The position numbers were made by a program, and so were the translations under genes. From Candidatus Binatia bacterium (GTDB lineage: Bacteria > Desulfobacterota > Binatia > UBA9968 > JAJDTQ01): a stretch of DNA of 64,000 bases. Each line of letters begins with the position of its first letter. Positions within the stretch are counted from its first letter, which is position 1. Shown one piece after another: positions 52,792-63,385 of the stretch. The notes beneath the pieces are model-generated. The model had not been told where the DNA came from, did no database searches, and was given only the letters and a program-made list of their open reading frames with translations. Location of the stretch: positions 1,568,001 to 1,632,000 of the forward strand of contig OY762897.2 in assembly GCA_963666515.2 (NCBI GenBank). Direction: 5' to 3'.

Positions 52792-52868
52792 GGCGGTGTA
52801 GCTCAGTTGGTCAGAGCACGCGGCTCATATCCGCGGCGTCGCTGGTTCAAGTCCAGCCACCGCCACCA
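52792..52868 (+). tRNA. tRNA-Met(CAT), elongator type
   Basis: GGCGGTGTAGCTCAGTTGGTCAGAGCA-CGCGG CTCATAT CCGCG-...GGTTCAAGTCCAGCCACCGCCACCA; G1:C72 paired; TTGCAT-N17-TATGAT upstream. Confidence 0.93.
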
Positions 52869-52902: not shown

Positions 52903-54663
52903 TCACGACGTCTTGCGAGACGCCGGGGCGTCCACGTGAACCGTGACGATGTCGGTGTCGTGATACTGCTGGTGATGGACCCTGGAGGCCAGGTGACGGA
53001 GCAGCCGGAGCGAGAGCTCCCGCTCTTCCGGCGCATCGACGGGACCGTTTCCGAGCAGCGCGATGCTGTCCTGGATGTTCTCCGTGCCGGCGCCGGCGAC
53101 GAACTCCAGCACGGCTCCGCCGCCTTCCTTGCGGGCGGTCAGCCGCAGCCGGCGCGGTTCCCGTCCCTCGCCCTGCTCGTCCTCGCGCATGAGCGTCAGC
53201 AGCGTCTCCTCGCCGGCGGCATCGAGACGGTCGGCCATGGCCTTGTCCCAGCCGCCGCGTGAAGCGAAGGCGGCGAGGAATTCGCGGATCTTCGGCAGCG
53301 CTTCCAGCCCGAACTCCACCTCCATGCGGCTCGGCCGGGGCGCGGTCAGTTCCACGAACGCGGTCATGAGGATGGCCACCAGCCCGCCGGCGGTCATGCC
53401 GTTCTGCAGCAGCCCGCCGGCCAGTTCGCCGAAGTATTCCGGGAAGATGACCCCGTTCTGGAAGCCGACCCCGGCCCAGAAAGACACGCCCACCACCAGC
53501 CCGGTGCGGTAGTCCAGCTCATCGTGGACCACCACCTTCATGCCGACCACGAACAGCATGGCCAGCAGCACGGTGGCGTAGGCCGCGACCACCGGCGCCG
53601 GGACCGCCAGAACGACCGCAAGCACCTTGGGCAGAAACGCCATGCCGACGAAGATCAACCCGATGGCGATGCCGACGTTGCGGGACGCGACGCCGGTCAG
53701 CTCGGTCACCGAGATGCTCGTCGAGTAGGTCGTGTTCGGCACCGTCCCGGCGAGGCCGGACAGCAGATTGCCCACGCCGTCCGCGCCCACCGCGCCCTGC
53801 ACCGCGCGGAAATCCACCGCACGGGTTGCGCGCCAGGAGACGCGCTGGATCGCCACGGCGTCGCCGATGGTCTCGATGGCGCCCACCAGGGTCACGAACA
53901 CGAACGCCGGCAGCAGCGCCCAGAAGACCCCTCCGAAGCTCAGGTCCAGGCCCGGCCACGTGCCGTCCGGAAGCCCCACCCAGGACGCCTTGGCGACCAT
54001 GCCCACGTCGTAGATGCCGAACGACGCCGCCACCACGGAGCCCACCACGACGCCGATGACCGGCGCCCACAGCCGCAGCGATCCGCTGGCCTTGAGGGCG
54101 ATGCAGGTGATCACCAGCACGGTGACCAGCGCGCTCAGCGGCGCCGCCAAGGCCGGGGAACCCTTCGGCACGTCGTCCAGCATGCCGAAGATGATGGGCA
54201 TCACCGTCACCGGGATCAGCATGATGACGGTTCCCGCCACCGCCGGCGTCAGTATCCGCCGCATCAGCGAAAGCCGGGACGAGAGGAGGAACTGGAAGAA
54301 CGACGAAACCAGCACCAGGGTGGCGAGCATCGCGGGGCCGCCCTTGACCAGGGCCGTGACGCAGACCGCGATGAACGCTCCCGAGGTGCCCATGAGCAGC
54401 ACGTGCCCGGCGCCGAAGCGGCCGACCCGGACCGCCTGCAGCACGGTGGTCACGCCGCTGATGGCAACCGCGGCGAACACCGCCCAGGAAAGGAACGCTT
54501 CGCTGCCGCCCGCGGCCCGGATCACGATGGCCGGAGTCAGCACGATCCCGGCGATGCAGAGAATGGCGAGTTGGAGGCCCAGCCCGAAGGCCAGCGCCAG
54601 CGGCGGCTGCTCGTCGGGCTGGTAGCGGATGCTCGTGCGATGGCCGGAGTCGTCGGTTGGCAT
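52903..54663 (-). CDS. NCS2 (xanthine/uracil) permease with C-terminal degenerate HATPase-like domain
   Basis: YQPDEQPP, GTSGAF, IETIGD, ADGVGN..PNTTYS; soluble tail of about 140 aa. Confidence 0.85.
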   Translation of the reverse strand: MPTDDSGHRTSIRYQPDEQPPLALAFGLGLQLAILCIAGIVLTPAIVIRAAGGSEAFLSWAVFAAVAISGVTTVLQAVRVGRFGAGHVLLMGTSGAFIAVCVTALVKGGPAMLATLVLVSSFFQFLLSSRLSLMRRILTPAVAGTVIMLIPVTVMPIIFGMLDDVPKGSPALAAPLSALVTVLVITCIALKASGSLRLWAPVIGVVVGSVVAASFGIYDVGMVAKASWVGLPDGTWPGLDLSFGGVFWALLPAFVFVTLVGAIETIGDAVAIQRVSWRATRAVDFRAVQGAVGADGVGNLLSGLAGTVPNTTYSTSISVTELTGVASRNVGIAIGLIFVGMAFLPKVLAVVLAVPAPVVAAYATVLLAMLFVVGMKVVVHDELDYRTGLVVGVSFWAGVGFQNGVIFPEYFGELAGGLLQNGMTAGGLVAILMTAFVELTAPRPSRMEVEFGLEALPKIREFLAAFASRGGWDKAMADRLDAAGEETLLTLMREDEQGEGREPRRLRLTARKEGGGAVLEFVAGAGTENIQDSIALLGNGPVDAPEERELSLRLLRHLASRVHHQQYHDTDIVTVHVDAPASRKTS

Positions 54664-54860
54664 GATGTGACCCCGTGGGACGCGAACCTGCGACGGCGTG
54701 CTGTCCAGGATCATTGTCGGCACAGACAAAGAAAATATATCAGACCATTTTAGGGCGGCCAATACCACGCTGGACTTAATCTCTGCCGTCTTCCTGTCTG
54801 ACAAACCAGGACCATCTCAGTCTGGACACCAACTTGAGTATTTGCCCCAGTACGGTATGA

Positions 54861-55170
54861 TGAACTGGTCCCGGAAAATCGGACAGGTTGCTAAGGAGTA
54901 TTCCACCGACCGAAGGAGGAATACGCGATGAGCACACGACGGCGATTCAGCGGGGAGTTCAAGGGCAAGGTGACCCTGGATGCGTCGCGCGGGGACAAGA
55001 CGATCCGGGAAACGGCCACACGCCACAAGGTGCATCTGAAGCAGGTAAGACGCTGGGGACGGCCGGCGGTGGACGGCATGCAGGACGTCTTCTTCAACGG
55101 GCGGAACCGGCTCGTGAGAACATTTCATCGAACACCTTCGGTACCCCTTCAAGTACAAGGCCGTCTACCT
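54861..55170 (+). mobile_element. Internally deleted IS3-family relic
   Basis: Left IR TGAACTGGTCCCGGAAAATCGGACA, orfA start MSTRRRFSGEFKGKV (54928), then an orfB C-terminal fragment (F)IEHLRYPFKYKAVYL. Confidence 0.75.
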
Positions 55171-55460
55171 TCTACTAATTCTCCGACAGCTTCGAGGGAG
55201 ATTCTGCCTTGACAGCCTCCACCCCGACCGGGGTTTTACGAAAAGGGAATGCTTCTGCTAACGCAGGCCAAGCGCAGCAGCTCGCTTTCCCCTCCCTCGG
55301 CTCAACCGGAACAGCAAGACATGTTAAACAGGAGCTTGGCGGCATGGCCCTACATTCGGAATACACGTCATCTCTGCAGCCCAACCGTCCAACAAATTGG
55401 GATCAACTCAATCCTACTGGCGTCGTGCATTGGAGTTGACCCGATTAGGTGGACACCTAA

Positions 55461-56510
55461 CCCAAGTTTAACAGAGGTAGTTGAGAGTCGTTATAATTCA
55501 TGGGGTTAGCGGGGCAATTTTGGTCTTCTGGCACTACATTCTGGTGTTTTTGACGATAATTCCAAGAGTTCAGACGGTCAACTTTTTGATACCGCCGGGT
55601 GCGGGATTGAGCCCGAGAGCGTTGTAGATTTGGAGTTGCTGGGGCTCGGCCCGGGTGGCCTTACGGACATGCAGGGTGCGGCCGTCCTTGCGGCGGAAGG
55701 TGGCGGTGACCCGGTGCTGGCCTTGGAGGATGCAGCGCAAGGTGGTCCAACTGGCGGTCTCGCCCAAGGCCGCGAGGCGGCGGCGGATGATCTGCACGAG
55801 TTGGTACGCGATGACGGTGATGAACAAATGGCCGTCGGAGCGGTGCTGCTTTTGGTGGAAGATGGGGCGCAGGCCGAGTTCGGACTTGAGGGAGCGGAAC
55901 ACGGCTTCGAGATCGGTGATCATGGTGTAAGTGCGCCAGAGGGTTTGCGGGTCCCAGTCGCCGAGGTTGGTGCGCAGACAGTAGACGCCGGGATGAGTGA
56001 GCATGGTGCCCGGGCGGGGCTGGCGCTCCCAGGTGACGGCCGCGGCCTTGCCGCCTTGGGGGTCGGCCACCACCTCGACCCGGTAATGCTGCGCGGCCCC
56101 TCGGCTTTGTTCCTGGATGCGCCCGATGCGCTGCCAGACATGGTCGAGGGCCTTGCGGGGGCGGGAGAGCCCCTCATGGAGTTTTTGCAAGGCGCCTTCG
56201 AAGCGTGCGGCAAAGCGTTTGGAGATGCCTTCCTCCTTCTTGGCGCGAGCTTCGGAGTAGCAGTACAATCGCACCTCGTCGTGGTCCTCGTCAACGACCC
56301 GGTGCAGGTGAACCTTGTGGTGAGAGCGGGTCTCGATGGCAGTGGCCAGTTCGGGATCGAAAAGCCGGGTGCGTTGGCGGCTGACCACCAGATAGCGGTA
56401 GCCCTGGTCCCGCAGCCAGGCGATGTTGTTCTCGGTGGCAATGCCTGCATCCATCACCACCACAGCATCGGCGGGCGTCTGGAGGGCTTCAAGCATGGAC
56501 GCCAGGGTCT
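55461..56510 (-). pseudogene. 5'-truncated IS1634-family transposase and element end
   Basis: VVMDAGIATE, GVYCLRTN, LEAVFRSLKSELGLRPIFHQ, HLFITVIAY; stop at 55570; N-terminus missing. Confidence 0.8.
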
Positions 56511-56932
56511 TTAAGGGTCTTCGTGAGGACGGATTGACGACGGCGGAGCGCGAGGAGTTGCGTCGGCTTCGGCGGGACAATCGCCAGCTCCGCGAAAAGC
56601 GGAAGATCCTAAAAAAGCCGCGGCTTGGTTCGCCCGGGAGACTGGGACAGTACCGGGGAGGTTTTCGAGTTCGTGAAGGCGAATCAGGCCGAACATCGGG
56701 TGGCCACGATGTGCCGGGTGCTGGGCGTCTCCCTCAGCGGGTACTACGCGTGGCTGGGGCGCGGGCGGTCGCGTCGTGCCAAGCGCGACGAGGAGTTGCG
56801 CGGGGCGATCCGAAAGATCCACAAGGCTTCCCGAGGCACCTACGGGGTTCCTCGGGTGCAGGCGGAGTTGGCCGCTGCCGGCTCGGCTGTGAGCCGCAAG
56901 CGGGTGGCGCGTCTGATGCGCGAGGGCACATG

Positions 56933-57030
56933 GAGAGCCGATGCGGTGAGAGTCGCACGTCCGGTTCGGAGGGCGGGCCGGAGAAACCCATCGCTCGAAA
57001 GACGACAGGGCGCTCCGGTCCGACCCCTAC
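56933..57030 (+). ncRNA. Group II intron remnant (domains V-VI, 3' splice site)
   Basis: GAGAGCCGATGCGGTGAGAGTCGCACGTCCGGTTCGG (DV), then a DVI hairpin ending CGACCCCTAC; IS3 orfB resumes with TYVPTW. Confidence 0.85.
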
Positions 57031-57734
57031 ACGTACGTGCCGACCTGGACGGGATTCGTGTACTTGGCTATAGTGCTGGATGTGTTCAGCCGCAAGGTCG
57101 TGGGGCGGTCCATGACTCATCATCTTCGTACCGAACTGGTGCTCGCAGCGCTCAACATGGCCGTCGGCCAGCGCCGTCCCACGGAGGTGGTCCATCATTC
57201 CGACAAGGGCTCCCAGTACACGTCGCTGGCCTTCGGCAAGGGCTGCCGCCAGATGGGAGTGCTGACCTCCGCCGGGTCGGCCGGGGATTGCTACGGCAAC
57301 GCCATGGCCGAGAGCTTCTTCGCCACCCTGGAGTGCGAGCTGAGCGAGCGGCAGGCGTTCCAAACCCAGGCCGAGGCACGCATGGCCGTCTTCCAGTTCA
57401 TCGAGGGCTGGTACAACACCCGACGCCGGCACTCTGCCCTACGCTACCTGAGCCCCAACGACTTTGAGCGCGCCGTTGAGGCGGCTGGGGCGCATCCTGA
57501 TGGCAACACTGGCCCGAACCAGGAGACCGACCCTGTCGTCTTCCTGATCCCCGAGCCGGATGTCCATGACCGCCCTCGGGGGCTCAATCCCTCGGTAATG
57601 GGGAAGGCTATGTTTCCAACGGCTGTCGCGCACCGCGGTGCCGGTGCATACAGCCCCCAACTATCCACGGGGTAACTCCACATTGACTCTTTTCACACTA
57701 AATTCTGACGACCACCGTAAAAGGATCTAGTACC

Positions 57735-60638
57735 ATGACCAGAGGCACACGTAGGATCAAAGACTCCCTTCGGTCTTGCTCTCAGAACCAGAAATTGGCC
57801 AAGCAAGCGTTTGCAAAAAAGGATCTTGACGAATACCACAAGCACGCTCAGCTCTTGATACACGATCTGCATACTGCTTTCAATTTCACAATGGAAGTGA
57901 TCTTAAACCATTTTCTACCGGCCGAACAGTTTGGCAGTAAAGGTTTTGAGGAGCGATTGAATCGGTTAAAGGAAGCCGTTATATCCCCCCTCGACGACGA
58001 AATAGACCGAGCAATTGCTGAGATAAAACTGCTACGTGACAAGGGGGACCATAGTTTAAACTCTCCCGGGTATATCTTGACGCCCGACGCCTTGGACCAC
58101 CATTTGAAATACATCCAAGAGTGGATCAATACCGAACTAGAGAATGTAAAAAAAAGGCCAATTGACCTGGGGTATTGTGATTTTCTGGTAGATACGCAAA
58201 AAGCACAAGCTATGCTGCTTCTAAAGTCTGTAAAGGTCGGAGAGGACCGAAAAGGTGCCGTGATCCTCGTTCACGGGGAAGGTGGAACCGGGAAATCAAG
58301 ACTTGCGGGTACAATACTTGATTTGGCACACCGTACTGGCTGGGATACTTTTGAGTATCATTGTACACCCCCAGGTGCCGTACTCAAATCGTTTGTCGAC
58401 ACAATTACCGCTGACCTTTCGAAGAGCAATGGATATAGGGGTTCCGCAACAATCAAACTCCCGGCTGAATCTCAGCGGGTCGCACGAGTCGGCGATACCA
58501 GTAGTGACGATTATACAGCTCCAGTCAGAAACCGGGCCATGTCATTTTCCCAGGCCCTATACGGCCGCTTCGAGAAGACCCGAACAGGAGGATCAGCAAA
58601 ACCGATCCTGATTTCTATAGACAACATGCAATGGTTGACGGAGACCGAGACCGACGAGATTTCCATTCTTATCAGAGATTACCGTAAAGGCCCTGTTGTG
58701 TTGATGGGTGTTTTCGGAGGTGACGTCGAAAAAGCCTCATCACCGAACCTTAGCCGTTTGATGAGCCTCGTGGAGAGGGGACGCCTCGTGAAACTTCGCC
58801 TTGAGAACATTCCCAAGGAAAAGATCAAAGACGCGATCAGATTAATGTTCTGGGACAAGCCATCTGACTTTCCTGAATGGTTCCATGAACTCTTATACGA
58901 CGCAACTAACGGCAATATCTTTTTTCTCCGTGAACTATTAAAAGGGATGACGTACGTCGGTGACACTAGAAAAAGTACGCCAATTCTCGTAAACAACATA
59001 ACGGATGACGAGGATGACCAAAGTGGCAAATGGGTTATCACAAAATCGAAAGAAGACTTGGAAATCCCGAGACGGGTCAAATCGGTTGTGACGGAAATAC
59101 TGCGTAGGCTCGATAAGGAATCGACTGGTGTTGCCGAGTGCGCGGCGGTGGCAGGAGGTCTGACCAATTTTCCTCAGGTACTGGTTGAGCGACTGGTGGA
59201 ACGTGTGGACAGTCAACCGCAAAAAACCATAGAGGATGCCCTCATAAGGTTGGCACGGGAAGGGATAATCGTTTTTCAGCAACAACATCATGATGTAGCC
59301 ATTAGGTTTTTGCACGAACTTACTAAGGACCAAATATATTCAAATATCGACACGGAACGAAAAAAGGAACTTCACTCGGCGACGGCAGCTATTATGGCGA
59401 ACGATCCTAATCTCCGTGTCCTCGGAGAGGATTACCACGAAACTATCGCAAACCACTTCTTCCAAGCCGAAATGCACTTGGATGCTGCCCGTCATTACCA
59501 CATTGCGGCGAACGAGTCAGTCCAAAACTGCTTGTTTAGAAATGCGACAAGACAACTCGAACAATCAATCGCGGCGATGAAAAGGATCCAAAAATTCCAT
59601 TCTTCTGAAGAAGAGCTTGACGTCCAAATTGCCTATTCAGATGCCTTGAGGCAGTGCGGCGACTTTGGAAAAGCAATTGAAGTCCTGGAGTCGATTTACC
59701 CGATTAGCGACGACTCAATACGCGCCCGTGGTAGGATCCTCAACATGCTGGGAGACTTGTACTGCTTGAATGGCTCAAGGGAGCTTGCTTTACAAGCCTA
59801 CAATGAGTGCCACAAGTTAGCTGAAGCCGAGAATCTTTCAGAACTTCTATTGGAAGTCACATCAGACCTCTGCGAGTTTTACGATCGTGAAGCAGAACGG
59901 TACTCAGGCAACCCAAACAAAGTGAAGGAGTTGATTGAAAAGGGTGATCAGTTTTTGATCCAACAGGTAAGTTTGGCGAATAAAAGCAACGACGACTCTG
60001 CGAAGGCCCGGGCGGCACGTAACCAAGCGAAACAGATGCGACGACGTGGCGAATTTGAACAGGCAATTGGCATCTACAAAAGGGCTTTGAGTTTTTATTC
60101 CTCTCAACCTAACGACCATTCCGTCCTTATTCCCTATGCAAAAACACTTTTTCTTTCCTATAAGTCCGCCACTCGTCTTGGCGGAGCGCCGGCACTGCCA
60201 GCCCGACTCGCGGCCAAAACGAGGAGACAAGAGGCGTACAATATTGTCGCCGATTTGCTCAAACGCGGAAAAAAAACAGGAGCCAAAAGAACACGGGCAA
60301 TCGCGCGGCAGTATAGAGGGTTGTTTCGTATGGGAGACGAGAACAGTAAAGCCAAGAAAGACCTAAAGGCAGCATTGAAGGTTTTTAAGGAGATCAAATT
60401 TGCTCGTGGTCTTACTGAAACATATATAGCGTTAGGAGAATGGTACCTCGAGAAGGGTAAGAAAAAGAAGGCAATCGAAATGTTTTCCTCAGGCCTGGAG
60501 ATTAAGGGCGACATCCGTCATCTTGCACTGCGCGCGGCCGACACTCTTGACGTGATGACCGAGACTGATCGAGCGGAAAGGCTCCGCGAATTGGTCGGCG
60601 GGAAGCGCCAGAGATGGCCGGAAGCCAGACGCACCTAA
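57735..60638 (+). CDS. HEPN-like - STAND (AAA_16) ATPase - TPR protein, putative NLR-like antiviral factor
   Basis: RDKGDH (aa 101-106), Walker A GEGGTGKS (aa 181-188), Walker B ISIDNMQW, TNGNIFFLREL, RFLHEL, helical TPR-like C-terminus; AT-rich. Confidence 0.8.
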   Translation: MTRGTRRIKDSLRSCSQNQKLAKQAFAKKDLDEYHKHAQLLIHDLHTAFNFTMEVILNHFLPAEQFGSKGFEERLNRLKEAVISPLDDEIDRAIAEIKLLRDKGDHSLNSPGYILTPDALDHHLKYIQEWINTELENVKKRPIDLGYCDFLVDTQKAQAMLLLKSVKVGEDRKGAVILVHGEGGTGKSRLAGTILDLAHRTGWDTFEYHCTPPGAVLKSFVDTITADLSKSNGYRGSATIKLPAESQRVARVGDTSSDDYTAPVRNRAMSFSQALYGRFEKTRTGGSAKPILISIDNMQWLTETETDEISILIRDYRKGPVVLMGVFGGDVEKASSPNLSRLMSLVERGRLVKLRLENIPKEKIKDAIRLMFWDKPSDFPEWFHELLYDATNGNIFFLRELLKGMTYVGDTRKSTPILVNNITDDEDDQSGKWVITKSKEDLEIPRRVKSVVTEILRRLDKESTGVAECAAVAGGLTNFPQVLVERLVERVDSQPQKTIEDALIRLAREGIIVFQQQHHDVAIRFLHELTKDQIYSNIDTERKKELHSATAAIMANDPNLRVLGEDYHETIANHFFQAEMHLDAARHYHIAANESVQNCLFRNATRQLEQSIAAMKRIQKFHSSEEELDVQIAYSDALRQCGDFGKAIEVLESIYPISDDSIRARGRILNMLGDLYCLNGSRELALQAYNECHKLAEAENLSELLLEVTSDLCEFYDREAERYSGNPNKVKELIEKGDQFLIQQVSLANKSNDDSAKARAARNQAKQMRRRGEFEQAIGIYKRALSFYSSQPNDHSVLIPYAKTLFLSYKSATRLGGAPALPARLAAKTRRQEAYNIVADLLKRGKKTGAKRTRAIARQYRGLFRMGDENSKAKKDLKAALKVFKEIKFARGLTETYIALGEWYLEKGKKKKAIEMFSSGLEIKGDIRHLALRAADTLDVMTETDRAERLRELVGGKRQRWPEARRT

Positions 60639-60666
60639 TAAGTCGCGGGGCATTACCTCGGCGTTT

Positions 60667-60690
60667 TGGAACTGCCCCGGAAAACTCGGC
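60667..60690 (+). mobile_element. IS3-like terminal inverted-repeat stub
   Basis: TGGAACTGCCCCGGAAAACTCGG resembles the IS3 end at 54861. Confidence 0.5.
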
Positions 60691-60791
60691 AACGTCACGG
60701 AACTGGTGACCGCGAGGCGGTATTATACAGCCCATGGCCGTTTGTGATGCAGTATCTTGATTAAGACGACAGGGACCCGGAGGGGTTTTCC

Positions 60792-61970
60792 ATGATAGAT
60801 AAGGCGCGTCTCCGAGAGTGCGTGGTGAAATTGGTGCAGATCGACAGCCTGTCCCGCAAGGAGCGGGCCATCGCTCTGCACCTCACCGAGGCACTCAAGG
60901 GGTTGGGCGGTGTCGTCTACATGGACAACGCGGGAACCGCAGTCGGCGGCGAGGTGGGGAATCTCGTCGCTCACTTCGACGGCAACGTGGACGGTGCCGA
61001 GCCCATACTGCTGTCGGCGCACATGGACACGGTGGCCCCGGGCGAGGGTGTCGTCCCCGTGGTGGACGGCGACGTGATACGGAGCGACGGCAGCACAGTG
61101 CTTGGAGGCGATGACAAGAGCGGTATCGCCATCATCCTGGAAGTGCTGCAAGCCCTGCACGAGGAGGAGTTGCCCCACGGGCACATCGACGTAGTCTTCA
61201 CCATTTGCGAGGAGGTCGGCCTCCTAGGCGCGAAACACCTAGACCTGGGACTTGTGCGGGCGAAGACCGGTCTCGTGCTCGATAGTGACTCCATCGGCTT
61301 CCTCATCACGAAGGCACCCGCAGTCAATCACCTTGAATTCGAAGTCTACGGTCTGGAGGCCCACGCCGGGATATGCCCGGAACGGGGCATCAACGCGATT
61401 CAGGTGGCCGCCAACGGCGTGGCCGCCATGTCGTTGGGGCGCATCGACGAGGACACCACTGCTAACCTAGGCTTGGTGAGCGGTGGCACAGCCGTAAACA
61501 TCGTGCCGAACCGGGTGGCGCTCACCGGGGAAGTACGTAGCCACGACGAGGACAAGCTCGAACGGCAGACGCAGGCGATGGTAGCGTGCATGGAGGAAGC
61601 CGCCGCCGGCGCCAACATGGAACTGGACGGTCACCGCCACGAAGCACGCGTGGAATGCCGGGTCCGGCGGGAATACGACCGCATGGACCTGTCCCACGAC
61701 ACCGCCATCGTCCGGCAGGTCCACGAAGCCGCGCACAACCTGGGTTTCACCGTCGACACCGTGGCCAAGGGCGGCGGCTGCGACGCCAACGTGTTCAACA
61801 GGCGAGGTCTCCAGGTCGCCAACCTGGCCAGCGGCATGCGGGACATCCACACGGTGCATGAATGGCTCGATGTCAACGACCTCGTGAGCGCGGCCCGCAT
61901 CATCCACGAGGTCCTCCGGCTGGAGGGTTGCGGTCAAACATGCTCGGACGTGAGCTTGAAACGCTCCTGA
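60792..61970 (+). CDS. M20 peptidase T-like metallohydrolase
   Basis: SAHMDTV, LGGDDKSG, CEEVG, AHAG, GGGCDAN, IHTVHE. Confidence 0.92.
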   Translation: MIDKARLRECVVKLVQIDSLSRKERAIALHLTEALKGLGGVVYMDNAGTAVGGEVGNLVAHFDGNVDGAEPILLSAHMDTVAPGEGVVPVVDGDVIRSDGSTVLGGDDKSGIAIILEVLQALHEEELPHGHIDVVFTICEEVGLLGAKHLDLGLVRAKTGLVLDSDSIGFLITKAPAVNHLEFEVYGLEAHAGICPERGINAIQVAANGVAAMSLGRIDEDTTANLGLVSGGTAVNIVPNRVALTGEVRSHDEDKLERQTQAMVACMEEAAAGANMELDGHRHEARVECRVRREYDRMDLSHDTAIVRQVHEAAHNLGFTVDTVAKGGGCDANVFNRRGLQVANLASGMRDIHTVHEWLDVNDLVSAARIIHEVLRLEGCGQTCSDVSLKRS

Positions 61971-63385
61971 AGGAAGAGCGGGGTCAGTTCTTCGAGTTCG
62001 TCAGCGCCTACGAGCAGAAGAAGCGCGGAACTCAGACCAAACGGCCCCAGGACCTCGCCCGCGAAATCGCGCGCATCCTCAACGGCATGGTCAACGCCGA
62101 CGGCGGCGTGCTCCTGGTGGGGGTCGAGCCCGACAAGAGCCTCACCGGCCTCCCCTATGCCGAACAGGAGATACGGGAGCTTTGCGAAGTGCCCCTGAAC
62201 CTCCTCAATCCCCCGCTCCCGTCCCTGCACGAACGCATCGACCTCGGCAACCTGCTGCTGCTCCGATTCGAGGTGAGCCCCGGCCTGGAGATCCGCCGCG
62301 TGGCCAGCGGCAGGACGTTCTACCGCATCGCCTCGGAAAACCCCGCGGTGGCACCCGAGCAGATCCGGCTCCTCAAGGACGCCAAGCTGTCGTATTCCTA
62401 CGAACGGCAGCACATCCACGACGCGAGCTGGGACGATCTGGACGCCGCCGCCATGGAGTCCTTCGCCGAACGCATGGATGCGCAGACGGACCCCCGGTCG
62501 CTGCTGTCGCGCACCTATCATCTCGTCCGCGGCTCCGCGGACCGGCCCGAGATCTCCATGGCCGCCCTGCTGCTCTTCGCCAGGGAGCCCACGAGATGGC
62601 ATCCGCGTTGCGGCATCGACTTCGTGAAGTACGAGGGCACCGAAAGACGCTATGGAGCGTCCCTGAACGTGGTCAAGCGGGTACGCATCGACCGTCCCCT
62701 GTGGATGCTGGTCGATGAGGCCGTGGGACGGATCAAGGAGCATATCCGCGAGCGCATGGTCAGGCACGACCTGTTCTTCCGGGAGCGGCTGGAATACCCC
62801 TCTTTTGCCTGGCAGGAGGCCCTGGTCAACGCCGTCGGGCACCGCGACTACGCCATCACCGGCGCGGAGATCGAGTTCTGGATGTTCGACGACCGCCTGG
62901 AAGTGAGAAGTCCGGGCGTGTTGCCGCCTCCTGTCGCGCTGGACCACCTCAACCGGCAACAGCGGGTGCACTTCTCGCGCAATCCGCTGCTGGTCCGGGT
63001 GTTGTCGGACCTGGGCTACATGCGCGAGATCGGCGAGGGCGTGCCGCGCATGTTCCAGGAGATGGAGCACAATGCGCTCCGGCCGCCCGAGTTCTCCACC
63101 GAGGGCTTCCTTTTCACCGTGACGCTGCGGAACACCCCCATCTACGACGACGAGACCCTGCGGTGGCTCAACCACTTCGACCGCTCCCGCCTGAGCCCGC
63201 GCCAGCAGCGTTTGCTGGTGTATGCGCTGTCGCACGACAAGCTGCTTTCCAGCGCCGACTACCAGCGCGTTGCCGCGGTCGACCGCGACACCGCCTACCG
63301 CGATATCCGCGGCCTAGTGAACATGGGCATCCTCGCCCCGGTCAAGCCCAAGAGCCGGACCTACAAGATCGTGGAGCCCATATGA
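61940..63385 (+). CDS. AlbA_2 (Schlafen-like) - HATPase_c_4 - wHTH protein
   Basis: GQFFEF, MVNADGGVLLVGVE, EALVNAVGHRDY, SPG, RNP, EIGEGV, TAYRDI. Confidence 0.88.
   Translation: MLGRELETLLKEERGQFFEFVSAYEQKKRGTQTKRPQDLAREIARILNGMVNADGGVLLVGVEPDKSLTGLPYAEQEIRELCEVPLNLLNPPLPSLHERIDLGNLLLLRFEVSPGLEIRRVASGRTFYRIASENPAVAPEQIRLLKDAKLSYSYERQHIHDASWDDLDAAAMESFAERMDAQTDPRSLLSRTYHLVRGSADRPEISMAALLLFAREPTRWHPRCGIDFVKYEGTERRYGASLNVVKRVRIDRPLWMLVDEAVGRIKEHIRERMVRHDLFFRERLEYPSFAWQEALVNAVGHRDYAITGAEIEFWMFDDRLEVRSPGVLPPPVALDHLNRQQRVHFSRNPLLVRVLSDLGYMREIGEGVPRMFQEMEHNALRPPEFSTEGFLFTVTLRNTPIYDDETLRWLNHFDRSRLSPRQQRLLVYALSHDKLLSSADYQRVAAVDRDTAYRDIRGLVNMGILAPVKPKSRTYKIVEPI

What the first reader, a model, noticed from the sequence alone, without database searches (positions are those of the whole stretch)
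57735..60638. Single-gene HEPN-STAND-TPR protein: candidate undescribed NLR-like antiviral RNase system
Seen in sequence: a 967-aa, visibly AT-rich ORF bracketed by IS3 debris. It has a ~135-aa helical N-terminal domain with R-x4-H (RDKGDH, aa 101-106; nt 58035-58052), a P-loop ATPase (GEGGTGKS, IDNMQW, GNIFF as GxP-like motif, RFLHEL) and a long TPR-like C-terminus. Established: Avs/STAND proteins use effector-NTPase-TPR architecture to sense phage proteins and oligomerise, and HEPN RNases need RxxxxH dimers. Inference: the TPR region senses a phage ligand, oligomerisation activates the HEPN RNase, and the cell arrests or dies. This AAA_16 type of ATPase is usually fused to adenylate cyclase, kinase or LuxR domains, so a HEPN effector would be unusual.
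Basis: partly seen in the sequence, partly recalled or inferred. Interest (0 to 1): 0.82.

Follow-up and report, generated by a model that had tools for sequence, protein, structure and literature searches.

The report
Foreign HEPN-like STAND-TPR sensor gene
This is a foreign, single-gene NLR-like protein with a likely RNase-type front end, an ATPase switch that has lost its hydrolysis residues, and a TPR sensor; the design was already predicted in print, but this copy is an unusually divergent variant.

Summary
The 967-aa ORF (57735-60638, +) is real. Its GC3 is 0.51 against 0.79-0.90 in neighbouring genes. It lies in a 6.1-kb insertion (about 54664-60789) missing from 4 of 4 congeners examined. 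IS debris lies upstream only.

Pfam confirms AAA_16 and TPR. The whole-protein model best matches solved STAND proteins (6mfv, SAMD9, Avs3, Apaf-1, MalT). An exhaustive search found a subfamily (33 representatives at E<=1e-30) whose N-termini swap between TIR, DUF4145 (a HEPN family), nothing, and a rare helical module shared with our protein.

That module has six known members; R101, H106 and P111 are invariant. Its model retrieves mostly HEPN structures, but weakly (best E 4.8e-3). The HEPN reading is therefore supported, not proven.

The protein deviates at 30 of 99 conserved columns and has the longest branch in the tree. The module's E-x3-K motif and the kinase/phosphatase partner genes seen in relatives are also absent.

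A fragmentary relative gives dN/dS of about 0.23 over 70 codons and keeps GNI, hinting at maintained function.

HEPN-STAND-TPR fusions were catalogued in 2013. Verdict: a new variant of a known kind; activity uncertain.

The parts
54664..60789 (.). Strain-specific insertion of about 6.1 kb between the xanthine/uracil-type permease gene and the M20 peptidase gene
   Evidence: blastn of the window against 4 congener loci: in 4 of 4, homology stops at 54663-54763 and resumes at 60769-60793, with only 221-379 bp between the two genes.
54928..55212 (+). IS3-family orfA fragment (HTH_Tnp_1)
   Evidence: Pfam HTH_Tnp_1, E 3.6e-6.
55570..56580 (-). Fragment of a DDE_Tnp_1 (IS4-like) transposase gene lying between the two IS3 pieces
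   Evidence: Pfam DDE_Tnp_1, E 1.3e-6.
56423..57675 (+). Frameshifted IS3 orfAB (HTH_21; rve, rve_2, rve_3). The element ends at 57668.
   Evidence: Pfam. Contigs of other copies diverge after 57668, and depth there is about 3 times that of the gene.
57735..60638 (+). 967-aa STAND protein gene (P0001), single copy in the genome
   Evidence: Gene GC 0.48, GC3 0.51.
57735..58178 (+). N-terminal HEPN-like helical module (aa 1-148)
   Evidence: Homologous to the N-termini of P0049, P0057, P0198, P0199 and the L094 protein. AF2 model pLDDT 74.4, pTM 0.70. Foldseek top hits are mostly HEPN proteins.
58035..58052 (+). R101-D-K-G-D-H106, the candidate HEPN R-x4-H motif
   Evidence: R and H are invariant in 6 of 6 module members. 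D102 replaces the N found in the other 5.
58275..58298 (+). Walker A, GEGGTGKS (aa 181-188), intact
   Evidence: G181, G184, G186 and K187 are invariant across the 33-row subfamily alignment.
58605..58640 (+). Walker B region ILISIDNMQWLT (aa 291-302). D296 is kept; D297N, E299Q and D302T are changed.
   Evidence: Relatives have D297 in 32/32, E299 in 31/32 and D302 in 32/32.
58716..58718 (+). G328 where the subfamily has an invariant Arg at the end of a core strand. The sensor-1-like role is my inference from its position.
   Evidence: R in 32 of 32 relatives. Strand 321-328 in the model.
58911..58919 (+). GNI (aa 393-395) in place of the subfamily's GxP motif
   Evidence: 25 of 32 relatives have GNP or SNP; none has I. 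The roughly 88%-identical relative seen in sequencing runs also has GNI.
59313..59315 (+). H527, the conserved His in the winged-helix region
   Evidence: Invariant in the 33-row alignment. Strands 512-517 and 520-525 in the model.
59352..60599 (+). TPR-like helical-repeat sensor region (aa ~540-955)
   Evidence: Pfam TPR_12, TPR_14, TPR_2 and others. The model shows continuous helical pairs here, mostly at pLDDT above 85.

Best explanation
The gene encodes a horizontally acquired, single-gene NLR-like (STAND) protein built on the effector-NTPase-sensor plan. It has an N-terminal helical module of the HEPN superfamily type (aa 1-~145; R101, H106), an AAA_16/MalT-type STAND NTPase with helical and winged-helix domains (aa ~165-540), and a TPR sensor (aa ~540-955).

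It belongs to a distinct STAND-TPR subfamily whose N-terminus is exchanged between TIR, DUF4145-HEPN, this HEPN-like module, other domains, or nothing. That pattern is typical of conflict and immunity proteins.

Most likely mechanism, all steps inferred: the TPR region binds a foreign (probably phage) protein; autoinhibition is released; the STAND core oligomerises; the N-terminal modules are brought together so that paired R-x4-H motifs form an RNase site; RNA cleavage then arrests the cell.

This copy keeps the Walker A lysine and the Mg-binding Asp but lacks the second Walker B acid, the following Glu, a conserved Arg and the GxP proline. It would therefore bind nucleotide without hydrolysing it, or act without nucleotide. 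That would make it a one-way switch rather than a resettable one.

Shown here: the architecture, the homology, the foreign origin, the motif states and the branch length. Inferred: ligand sensing, oligomerisation, RNase activity and any defence role.
For: Architecture:
- Pfam AAA_16 and TPR.
- Whole-protein AF2 model: pLDDT 77.9, a five-stranded P-loop core, a winged helix, then TPR helices.
- Foldseek top PDB matches: 6mfv STAND-TPR (E 4.6e-12), SAMD9, Avs3 (8dgc), Apaf-1, MalT (8bob).

Subfamily:
- 33 representatives at E<=1e-30, matching aa ~160-950.
- Of 10 scanned, 4 carry TIR_2 (E 3e-10 to 8.6e-35) and 2 carry sub-threshold DUF4145.
- The L052 member carries DUF4145 at E 4.4e-8, above Pfam's cut-off.
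- On the tree, P0001 falls inside the subfamily (99% support). The four proteins with the HEPN-like module fall on one side of a branch with 98% support.

HEPN reading:
- BLASTP of our N-terminus against P0049's gives E 4e-5 with R and H aligned.
- Six module members; R101, H106 and P111 are invariant.
- The residue after R is D. The 2013 survey says this position is 'mostly N, D or H' (PMC3710099 passage).
- Most of the listed Foldseek PDB hits for the module model are HEPN proteins: 2hsb E 4.8e-3, and 7bxo TM 0.62.
- hhalign against a genuine DUF4145 alignment: 68% probability, E 4.8e-5, with His aligned to His.
- The module also sits on a NACHT-HEAT protein, P0198, so it behaves as a portable effector.

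Foreign origin:
- GC3 0.51 against 0.79-0.90.
- The insertion is absent from 4 of 4 congeners.
- No orthologue in 24 same-genus genomes; 2 of them gave only short matches at E~1e-4.

Maintained function:
- dN/dS of about 0.23 over 70 codons; 12 of 21 substitutions fall at third positions (P=0.02); the relative keeps GNI.

Precedent for a working Avs with degenerate Walker motifs: KpAvs8, in the legend of Extended Data Fig. 11 of Lee et al. 2026 (PMC13581612).
Against: - No defence model matches. PADLOC's best hit for P0001 is E 0.0026. For 9 relatives only TIR or TPR pieces hit.
- The locus sits between housekeeping genes that are conserved in congeners.
- Among 51 neighbours of 7 relatives' loci, only scattered PADLOC hits appeared, each family in 1-2 members.
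- No relative was found in viral contigs.
- The HEPN evidence is weak in absolute terms. No Foldseek hit reached E<=1e-3. hhalign gave only 68%. There were no Pfam, NCBIfam or PDB sequence hits for our module.
- The R-x4-H sits at the end of a helix followed by a low-confidence loop in the model.
- The E-x3-K motif, invariant in the other 5 members, reads N50...E54 in ours.
- P0001 deviates at 30 of 99 conserved columns, against 1-11 for most full-length relatives (P0081 17, P0083 15). Its branch is 2.3 against a median of 0.77, and its composition is deviant. This fits decay as well as specialisation.
- The kinase and phosphatase genes that follow relatives are absent here.
- The dN/dS estimate rests on 21 substitutions from one low-depth contig.
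Confidence: 0.5

Rival explanations
1. The gene is an inactive relic. It is a STAND gene torn from its operon, carried in beside an IS3 element, and drifting. Its ORF is still open, but its NTPase and HEPN catalytic apparatus are already lost, so it does nothing or nearly nothing.
For: - 30 of 99 subfamily-conserved columns are changed, including Walker B D297N and E299Q, D302T and R328G. The GxP proline is also lost.
- The module's E-x3-K is lost.
- It has the longest terminal branch, 2.3 against a median of 0.77.
- The AAA_33 kinase and His_Phos_1 phosphatase that follow 3 relatives (L049, L053, L094) are absent, and the insertion ends about 150 bp after the stop.
- It lies next to degraded IS copies.
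Against: - A 967-codon frame is intact in 48% GC DNA.
- dN/dS is about 0.23 with an excess of third-position changes, and the ~88%-identical relative shares GNI. The deviant motifs therefore predate the split and have been kept.
- Walker A, the Mg-binding D296, the winged-helix H527, and R101/H106 are all retained.
- The TPR region folds with very high confidence.
- An active Avs with degenerate Walker motifs is reported in the Lee et al. 2026 legend.
Confidence: 0.25
2. The protein is a STAND-TPR immune or conflict sensor, but the N-terminal helical bundle is not a nuclease. It would be an adaptor or oligomerisation domain that recruits or activates a separate effector. R101 and H106 would be conserved for structural or binding reasons.
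For: - The HEPN evidence is sub-threshold throughout.
- The motif lies at a helix end next to a disordered loop in the model.
- Effector-less relatives exist (L050, L051, L054), and many relatives have conserved downstream enzymes. So the chassis can work with effectors or partners encoded separately.
- Adaptor-type N-termini on bacterial NACHTs are described in Kibby et al. 2022 (passage).
Against: - The five other members show both HEPN hallmarks together: R-N-x3-H and E-x3-K (definitions in the PMC3710099 passage).
- The fold search returns HEPN proteins rather than other helical bundles at the top of the list.
- No partner gene is present in the window's insertion.
Confidence: 0.12
3. The protein is a non-immune regulatory STAND of the MalT/GutR kind. 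It would sense an endogenous small molecule or protein through its TPRs and control some cellular process, with the N-terminal bundle as its output domain.
For: - The AAA_16/MalT-type core: the nearest word-index relatives are cyclase, LuxR and kinase fusions.
- MalT (8bob) is among the fold matches.
- Relatives' partners (kinase, histidine phosphatase, HAD hydrolase, pentapeptide protein) are not classical defence genes.
- There are few defence neighbours.
- Lee et al. 2026 note that defence and non-defence STAND clades are interspersed (section 5).
Against: - TIR and DUF4145-HEPN N-termini on the same chassis point to conflict functions.
- No DNA-binding or signalling output domain was detected.
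- The gene is a sporadic, horizontally acquired singleton absent from congeners. That is atypical for a housekeeping regulator.
Confidence: 0.08

Closest known systems
Predicted bacterial HEPN-STAND(-TPR) fusion proteins catalogued in Anantharaman et al. [quoted passage not shown]
   Same: An N-terminal HEPN-type domain, a STAND NTPase and TPR repeats in one polypeptide, with a predicted RNA-targeting conflict role (passages seen).
   Different: I could not compare sequences with those examples because none was fetched. Our N-terminal module matches no Pfam HEPN family, and only six members were found. Our copy also has a degenerate NTPase.
Avs / AVAST antiviral STAND NTPases (e.g. Avs3, PDB 8dgc) and the defence-associated STAND clades of Lee et al. 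2026 (PMC13581612)
   Same: The tripartite effector-NTPase-TPR-like sensor plan. Avs3 is among the top fold matches. KpAvs8 is reported to have degenerate Walker motifs (legend seen).
   Different: No PADLOC Avs model matches. The core is AAA_16/MalT-like by Pfam. The trigger is unknown and no phage assay exists. Whether this subfamily is one of the paper's 589 clades is recorded only in supplementary tables I could not open.
PH0952-type STAND-TPR protein (PDB 6mfv) and MalT (PDB 8bob)
   Same: These are the best structural matches for the NTPase plus TPR body (6mfv E 4.6e-12; MalT TM 0.60 on the target).
   Different: As I recall, those are regulators without a nuclease-type N-terminus. Sequence identity is 13-14%.
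HEPN toxins of HepT/MNT pairs (PDB 7bxo, 5yep, 7ae8, 8xdj), HEPN-T proteins (2hsb, 1wol), and the DUF4145 family
   Same: They are the top fold matches of the N-terminal module. The entry titles name R102 and H107 mutants of a ~145-aa HepT, close to our R101 and H106 in a ~145-aa module; that these are its catalytic residues is my recollection. DUF4145 is a HEPN family (PMC3710099 passage), occurs on the same chassis, and aligns by profile at 68%.
   Different: E-values are weak (none at or below 1e-3). There is no MNT antitoxin partner. Our copy lacks E-x3-K.
Bacterial NACHT (bNACHT) NLR-related proteins, Kibby et al. 2022 preprint
   Same: HEPN is listed among their fused domains (passage). 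P0198 is a NACHT-HEAT protein carrying the same N-terminal module as ours.
   Different: Our NTPase is not a NACHT. Pfam gives AAA_16, and the Walker B region lacks the D[GAS]hDE signature quoted in that paper.

Membership tests
STAND NTPase (AAA_16 / MalT-like type) | Walker A GxxxxGK[ST] | tested here: met
   GEGGTGKS at 181-188. G181, G184, G186 and K187 are invariant in the 33-row alignment.
STAND NTPase (AAA_16 / MalT-like type) | Walker B hhhhD followed by a second acidic residue (the definition is recalled) | tested here: not met
   The first Asp, D296, is kept. The second is N297, where 32 of 32 relatives have D. E299 is Q (31 of 32 have E) and D302 is T (32 of 32 have D).
STAND NTPase (AAA_16 / MalT-like type) | Conserved Arg after the fourth core strand (sensor-1-like; the role is inferred from position and recalled knowledge) | tested here: not met
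   G328, where 32 of 32 relatives have R.
STAND NTPase (AAA_16 / MalT-like type) | GxP motif in the helical domain | tested here: not met
   GNI at 393-395. 25 of 32 relatives have P, 5 A, 1 S and 1 V; none has I.
STAND NTPase (AAA_16 / MalT-like type) | Winged-helix domain with a conserved His, and the tripartite NBD-HD-WHD fold resembling solved STANDs | tested here: met
   H527 is invariant. The model has the P-loop core, helical domain and winged helix. Top PDB matches are 6mfv, SAMD9, Avs3, Apaf-1 and MalT. Pfam AAA_16 E 1.6e-12.
TPR sensor | Tandem TPR-like helical hairpins C-terminal to the NTPase | tested here: met
   TPR_12 at 3.1e-14, TPR_14 at 7.1e-12 and TPR_2 at 2.1e-8. The model shows helical pairs over 540-953 at high pLDDT.
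HEPN superfamily | Conserved R-x4-6-H with a polar residue (N, D or H) after the R (PMC3710099 passage) | tested here: met
   R101-D-K-G-D-H106. R and H are invariant in 6 of 6 module members. D102 is polar; the other 5 have N. The motif alone is not beyond chance.
HEPN superfamily | Second conserved acidic residue, typically E-x3-[KR] (PMC3710099 passage) | tested here: not met
   The other 5 members have E-x3-K ('LEWTLK' and similar). Ours reads N50...E54 at the aligned positions.
HEPN superfamily | Helical-bundle fold like solved HEPN domains | tested here: inconclusive
   AF2 model pLDDT 74.4, pTM 0.70, built from a 4-row alignment. Most top Foldseek PDB hits are HEPN proteins, but the best E is 4.8e-3, TM is 0.41-0.62, and none reaches E<=1e-3.
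HEPN superfamily | Profile-level match to an established HEPN family | tested here: inconclusive
   hhalign against DUF4145: 68% probability, E 4.8e-5 over 59 columns. No Pfam hit for any of 4 members. 1 of 6 members hits TIGR02391 'hypoth_ymh' at E 0.0025. Ymh is listed as a HEPN family in PMC3710099; the equivalence of the two names is my inference.
HEPN superfamily | Dimerisation forming a composite RNase site; RNase activity | not testable with these tools
   No biochemical data exist. The complex prediction gave no verdict; see Tried and rejected.
Avs / known anti-phage STAND systems | Match to a curated defence-system model | tested here: not met
   PADLOC: no hit better than E 0.0026 for P0001. 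In 9 relatives only TIR or TPR pieces hit.
Avs / known anti-phage STAND systems | Defence-island or mobile-element context | tested here: inconclusive
   The window gene is in an IS-associated insertion between housekeeping genes. Neighbours of 7 relatives gave scattered PADLOC hits only. L094 has a T4SS coupling-protein-like gene upstream. No relative was found in viral contigs.
Avs / known anti-phage STAND systems | Protection against phage, triggered by a phage protein | not testable with these tools
   An experiment is needed.

The most novel reading that the evidence does not exclude
The subfamily may be an undescribed three-gene immune module: an effector-STAND-TPR sensor followed by an AAA_33 polynucleotide-kinase-like enzyme and a histidine phosphatase. 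The two enzymes would repair or reset the damage made by the effector. For a HEPN RNase that means healing 5'-OH and 2',3'-cyclic-phosphate RNA ends, which would make the arrest reversible.

The window's gene would then be a natural 'solo, locked' derivative. It has no repair partners, and its Walker B carries amide-for-acid changes (DN..Q) resembling the hydrolysis-dead trap mutations used in the laboratory. It would act as an irreversible, one-shot NLR-like switch.
Probability: 0.1. Interest if true: 0.75.

Novelty: new variant of a known kind. Interest (0 to 1): 0.42.

Why it matters
If active, this would be a compact single-gene NLR-like sensor with an RNase-type output and a naturally hydrolysis-deficient NTPase. 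It could be used to ask whether nucleotide hydrolysis is needed at all for bacterial STAND immunity.

Its N-terminal module is in neither Pfam nor NCBIfam. It occurs on two different STAND chassis (AAA_16 type and NACHT), so it would add a new HEPN-like effector family.

The recurrent kinase plus histidine-phosphatase partners of its relatives may mark a larger unstudied system.

If the copy is inactive, it is simply a foreign gene in decay next to an IS element, and of little interest.

Tried and rejected
- Sequence searches for the N-terminal module found nothing usable: Pfam, PDB by profile (best hit E 0.098, a designed helical repeat), NCBIfam for our copy, and the ESM Atlas (best score 0.76, below any useful level).
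- Complex prediction with two copies of the module returned 'no answer'. It is not evidence either way.
- The look-up of sequencing runs listed no RNA holder, so nothing can be said about expression.
- Promoter and terminator scan of 57450-60900: no + strand site, and counts were at or below shuffle expectation. Uninformative.
- Terminal inverted repeats of the IS3 copy and an IS-like right border of the insertion: local alignments gave only 9-13 nt matches. The 25-nt direct repeat flanking the gene (57632-57656 and 60709-60733, 72% identity) remains unexplained and may be chance.
- Plasmid collection: tblastn found only distant AAA_16 relatives (0 of 39 records cover at least 80% of the query; at most 24% identity among the 8 records listed). 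The IS3 copy had no match.
- Viral contigs: 13 pattern matches, none confirmed.
- First metagenome scan with alignment A3: the tool reported no conserved stretch. It was repeated with alignment A7, built without the window's row, and gave one locus, L094.
- The careful tree search did not finish; the quick IQ-TREE result was used. P0082 was dropped because its core is under 600 aa.
- Earlier notes of this scan: nothing near the locus. The two notes elsewhere in the genome do not bear on it.
- I tried to learn what kind of organism this is from cluster names and got no names.
- I considered an Avs1-5 or bNACHT assignment and rejected it. There is no PADLOC hit, and Walker B lacks the NACHT signature.

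Full report
THE OBSERVATION

It is strongly AT-shifted. Sliding-window GC is 0.45-0.52 against 0.62-0.70 on both sides. The gene's GC3 is 0.51, against 0.79-0.90 for five neighbouring genes including the IS3 transposase.

All the quoted motifs are present at the stated residues. Pfam confirms AAA_16 (171-322, E 1.6e-12) and a set of TPR families between 614 and 934.

Three details do not hold:
- IS debris lies only upstream: an IS3 orfA piece, an IS4-like DDE transposase piece on the other strand, and a frameshifted IS3 orfAB.
- An R-x4-H is not significant by itself. 39% of shuffles of aa 1-148 (7797 of 20000) contain one.
- 'IDNMQW' and 'GNIFF' are damaged versions of the family's motifs (see 'This copy is the outlier' below).

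THE LOCUS

The gene is single-copy in its genome. It has no orthologue in 24 same-genus genomes; 2 of them gave only short matches at E~1e-4.

The M20 peptidase gene just downstream is conserved in 25 of 27 congeners. In 4 of 4 congener loci that I fetched, the permease gene and the M20 gene are adjacent, 221-379 bp apart. Window ~54664-60789 is therefore a 6.1-kb strain-specific insertion made of the IS remnants plus this one gene.

Contigs of public runs show that other IS3 copies diverge after 57668. That marks the IS end, 66 bp before the start codon. A diverged copy of the gene runs into unlike sequence after 60665, 27 bp past the stop. The foreign unit is thus essentially the gene alone. 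I found no inverted repeats or IS-like right border.

THE BODY OF THE PROTEIN

The word-index search found only relatives at 24% identity or less, with cyclase, LuxR or kinase fusions.

The exhaustive HMMER search changed the picture. It found 6089 hits, 33 of them at E<=1e-30. These align from about residue 160 to 950 and mostly carry their own 180-200-aa N-termini.

A whole-protein AlphaFold model built on 33 of these has pLDDT 77.9. It shows a five-stranded P-loop core, a helical domain, a winged helix and about 400 residues of confident TPR-like helices. Its best PDB matches are the archaeal STAND-TPR protein 6mfv (E 4.6e-12), SAMD9, Avs3, Apaf-1 and MalT. The STAND-TPR reading is secure.

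THE N-TERMINI OF THE SUBFAMILY

Of 10 relatives scanned:
- 4 carry TIR_2 (E 3e-10 to 8.6e-35);
- 2 have sub-threshold DUF4145;
- 4 have nothing in Pfam.

A genome-derived member, L052, carries DUF4145 at E 4.4e-8, above Pfam's cut-off. The 2013 HEPN survey treats DUF4145 as a HEPN family (PMC3710099, passage seen). Three actinobacterial members (L050, L051, L054) have no N-terminal domain at all. This effector swapping on a constant chassis is the main argument for a conflict or immunity role.

OUR N-TERMINUS

It has no Pfam, NCBIfam or PDB sequence match. It does align with the N-terminus of the best full-length hit, P0049, at BLASTP E 4e-5, with R101 and H106 on that protein's 'RNQAEH'.

Profile searches and a metagenome scan brought the family to six members: P0001, P0049, P0057, the L094 protein, the NACHT-HEAT protein P0198, and the short-contig fragment P0199. 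P0200 is truncated before the motif.

R101, H106 and P111 are invariant in all six. The other five also share R-N-x3-H and an upstream E-x3-K. The 2013 survey gives these two hallmarks for HEPN, and says the residue after R is 'mostly N, D or H'. Ours is D.

An AF2 model of the module (pLDDT 74.4, pTM 0.70, from only four sequences) is an all-helical bundle. Its Foldseek hits in the PDB are dominated by HEPN proteins: 2hsb, HepT toxins 7bxo/5yep/7ae8/8xdj, 4nqf, 1wol and 2q00. The best E-value is only 4.8e-3 and TM-scores are 0.41-0.62.

A profile-profile comparison with a DUF4145 alignment that I built from 11 genome loci gives 68% probability (E 4.8e-5), with His aligned to His. One of the six members weakly hits TIGR02391 'hypoth_ymh' (E 0.0025), and Ymh is another HEPN family in the 2013 table.

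Taken together, I rate 'HEPN-superfamily module' at about 0.7. In our copy the E-x3-K is gone, replaced by N50...E54.

THIS COPY IS THE OUTLIER

In the 33-row alignment, 99 columns are at least 90% conserved among the other 32 rows. P0001 differs at 30 of them. Most full-length relatives differ at 1-11 (P0081 at 17, P0083 at 15). The higher values of 20-29 belong to truncated rows.

The changes hit the NTPase engine:
- D297N: 32 of 32 relatives have D.
- E299Q: 31 of 32 have E.
- D302T: 32 of 32 have D.
- R328G: 32 of 32 have R.
- GNP to GNI: 25 of 32 have P, none has I.

Walker A, the first Walker B Asp (D296) and the winged-helix His (H527) are kept.

From general knowledge of P-loop NTPases (recalled), this pattern predicts nucleotide binding without hydrolysis.

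On a tree of the NTPase-TPR core, P0001 lies inside the subfamily (99% support). It falls on one side of a 98%-supported branch with the other HEPN-like-module proteins. However, its terminal branch is 2.3 against a median of 0.77, its composition is deviant, and the program warns about long-branch effects.

DECAY OR SPECIALISATION?

Low-depth contigs in two runs hold a relative at about 82-90% nucleotide identity. Over the one stretch for which substitutions were listed (aa 333-402; 21 of that contig's 25 differences):
- 12 of 21 fall at third codon positions (binomial P=0.02);
- dN/dS is about 0.23;
- the relative also reads GNI.

This is a small sample from one contig. It suggests that the lineage, deviant motifs included, is under purifying selection. 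Lee et al. [quoted passage not shown]

CONTEXT OF RELATIVES

In 3 loci (L049 and L053 with TIR, L094 with the HEPN-like module) the STAND gene is followed by two co-oriented genes, abutting or overlapping in L049 and L053. These encode an AAA_33 P-loop kinase and a His_Phos_1 histidine phosphatase.

The three effector-less members are followed by a pentapeptide-repeat protein, and two of them (L050, L054) also by a HAD hydrolase. The window's insertion has no room for such partners.

PADLOC on 51 neighbours of 7 loci gave only scattered hits, each family in 1-2 members. No PADLOC model covers the STAND core of P0001 or of 9 relatives. No relative was found in viral contigs or, at subfamily level, on plasmids. 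The defence role therefore rests on domain logic, not on context.

COMPARISON WITH WHAT IS KNOWN

N-terminal HEPN fused to STAND NTPases, with TPRs, is in Table 1 and the text of Anantharaman et al. 2013 (passages seen). HEPN is among the domains fused to bacterial NACHTs in Kibby et al. 2022 (passage).

Lee et al. 2026 (abstract, sections 5 and 15, and passages read) sort prokaryotic STANDs into 589 clades, 198 of them defence-associated. Whether this subfamily is among them is recorded only in supplementary tables I could not see.

My searches for a described STAND + kinase + histidine-phosphatase system found none in the main texts. In one search, none of the 9 STAND or defence papers among the 10 listed contains 'histidine phosphatase' (13 papers matched in all). 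Searches also found nothing.

VERDICT

This is a real, foreign, intact gene for a STAND-TPR protein with a probable HEPN-type N-terminal effector. The kind is known from computational surveys.

Three things are new here:
- a naturally hydrolysis-deficient NTPase;
- a solo arrangement without the partners seen in relatives.

Whether it still works is open. I put about 0.5 on a functional NLR-like conflict sensor with an RNase-type output, and 0.25 on an inactive relic. The rest is split between an adaptor-type N-terminus and a non-immune regulator.

Noticed in passing
L049:12247-13448; L053:12295-13395; L094:6854-8066: In three relatives from different lineages (two TIR-STAND-TPR, one HEPN-like-STAND-TPR), the STAND gene is followed by two co-oriented genes, abutting or overlapping in L049 and L053. 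They encode an AAA_33 P-loop kinase (Zeta-toxin-like) and a His_Phos_1 histidine phosphatase, in either order. This may be a conserved three-gene system. I found no description of it in the papers searched.
   Followed up: partly
L050:12376-14113; L051:12310-13197; L054:12262-13958: Effector-less STAND-TPR members in three actinobacterial genomes are followed by a pentapeptide-repeat protein. In L050 and L054 a HAD (Hydrolase_3) phosphatase follows as well.
   Followed up: partly
window 58719-60665: Runs X1 and X3 hold, at about 2x depth, contigs of a relative at 82-90% nucleotide identity. It leaves the window's sequence after 60665. A run of a different organism and study (X5) holds two 151-nt pieces identical to the gene. 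Closer relatives therefore exist in raw data than in the protein databases.
   Followed up: partly
window 57632-57656 and 60709-60733: A 25-nt direct repeat (72% identity) sits just inside the IS3 end and just after the gene, flanking the AT-rich unit. It may be chance. No other IS-like sequence was found at the right border.
   Followed up: partly
P0198 (1226 aa): The same HEPN-like N-terminal module ('RNAAEH', E-x3-K) sits on a NACHT + HEAT-repeat protein. The module is therefore shared between two different STAND chassis.
   Followed up: partly
window 61862-63385: A gene for a Schlafen AlbA_2 + HATPase_c_4 protein overlaps the 3' end of the M20 peptidase gene by about 109 nt. The DNA of at least its first part is conserved in the congeners, so it is core rather than part of the insertion.
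   Followed up: no
window 57600-57668: The IS3 end has about 3 times the contig depth of the neighbouring gene, and several different flanks follow it. The element is multi-copy in the genome or sample.
   Followed up: no
L094:2096-3334 (-): A T4SS coupling-protein-like gene (TrwB_AAD_bind, T4SS-DNA_transf) lies immediately upstream of the HEPN-like STAND gene in the metagenome locus. This hints at a conjugative-element context there.
   Followed up: no
window 52792-52868: tRNA-Met (CAT) lies between the dehydrogenase and permease genes, about 1.8 kb from the left edge of the insertion. It is not at the insertion junction.
   Followed up: no
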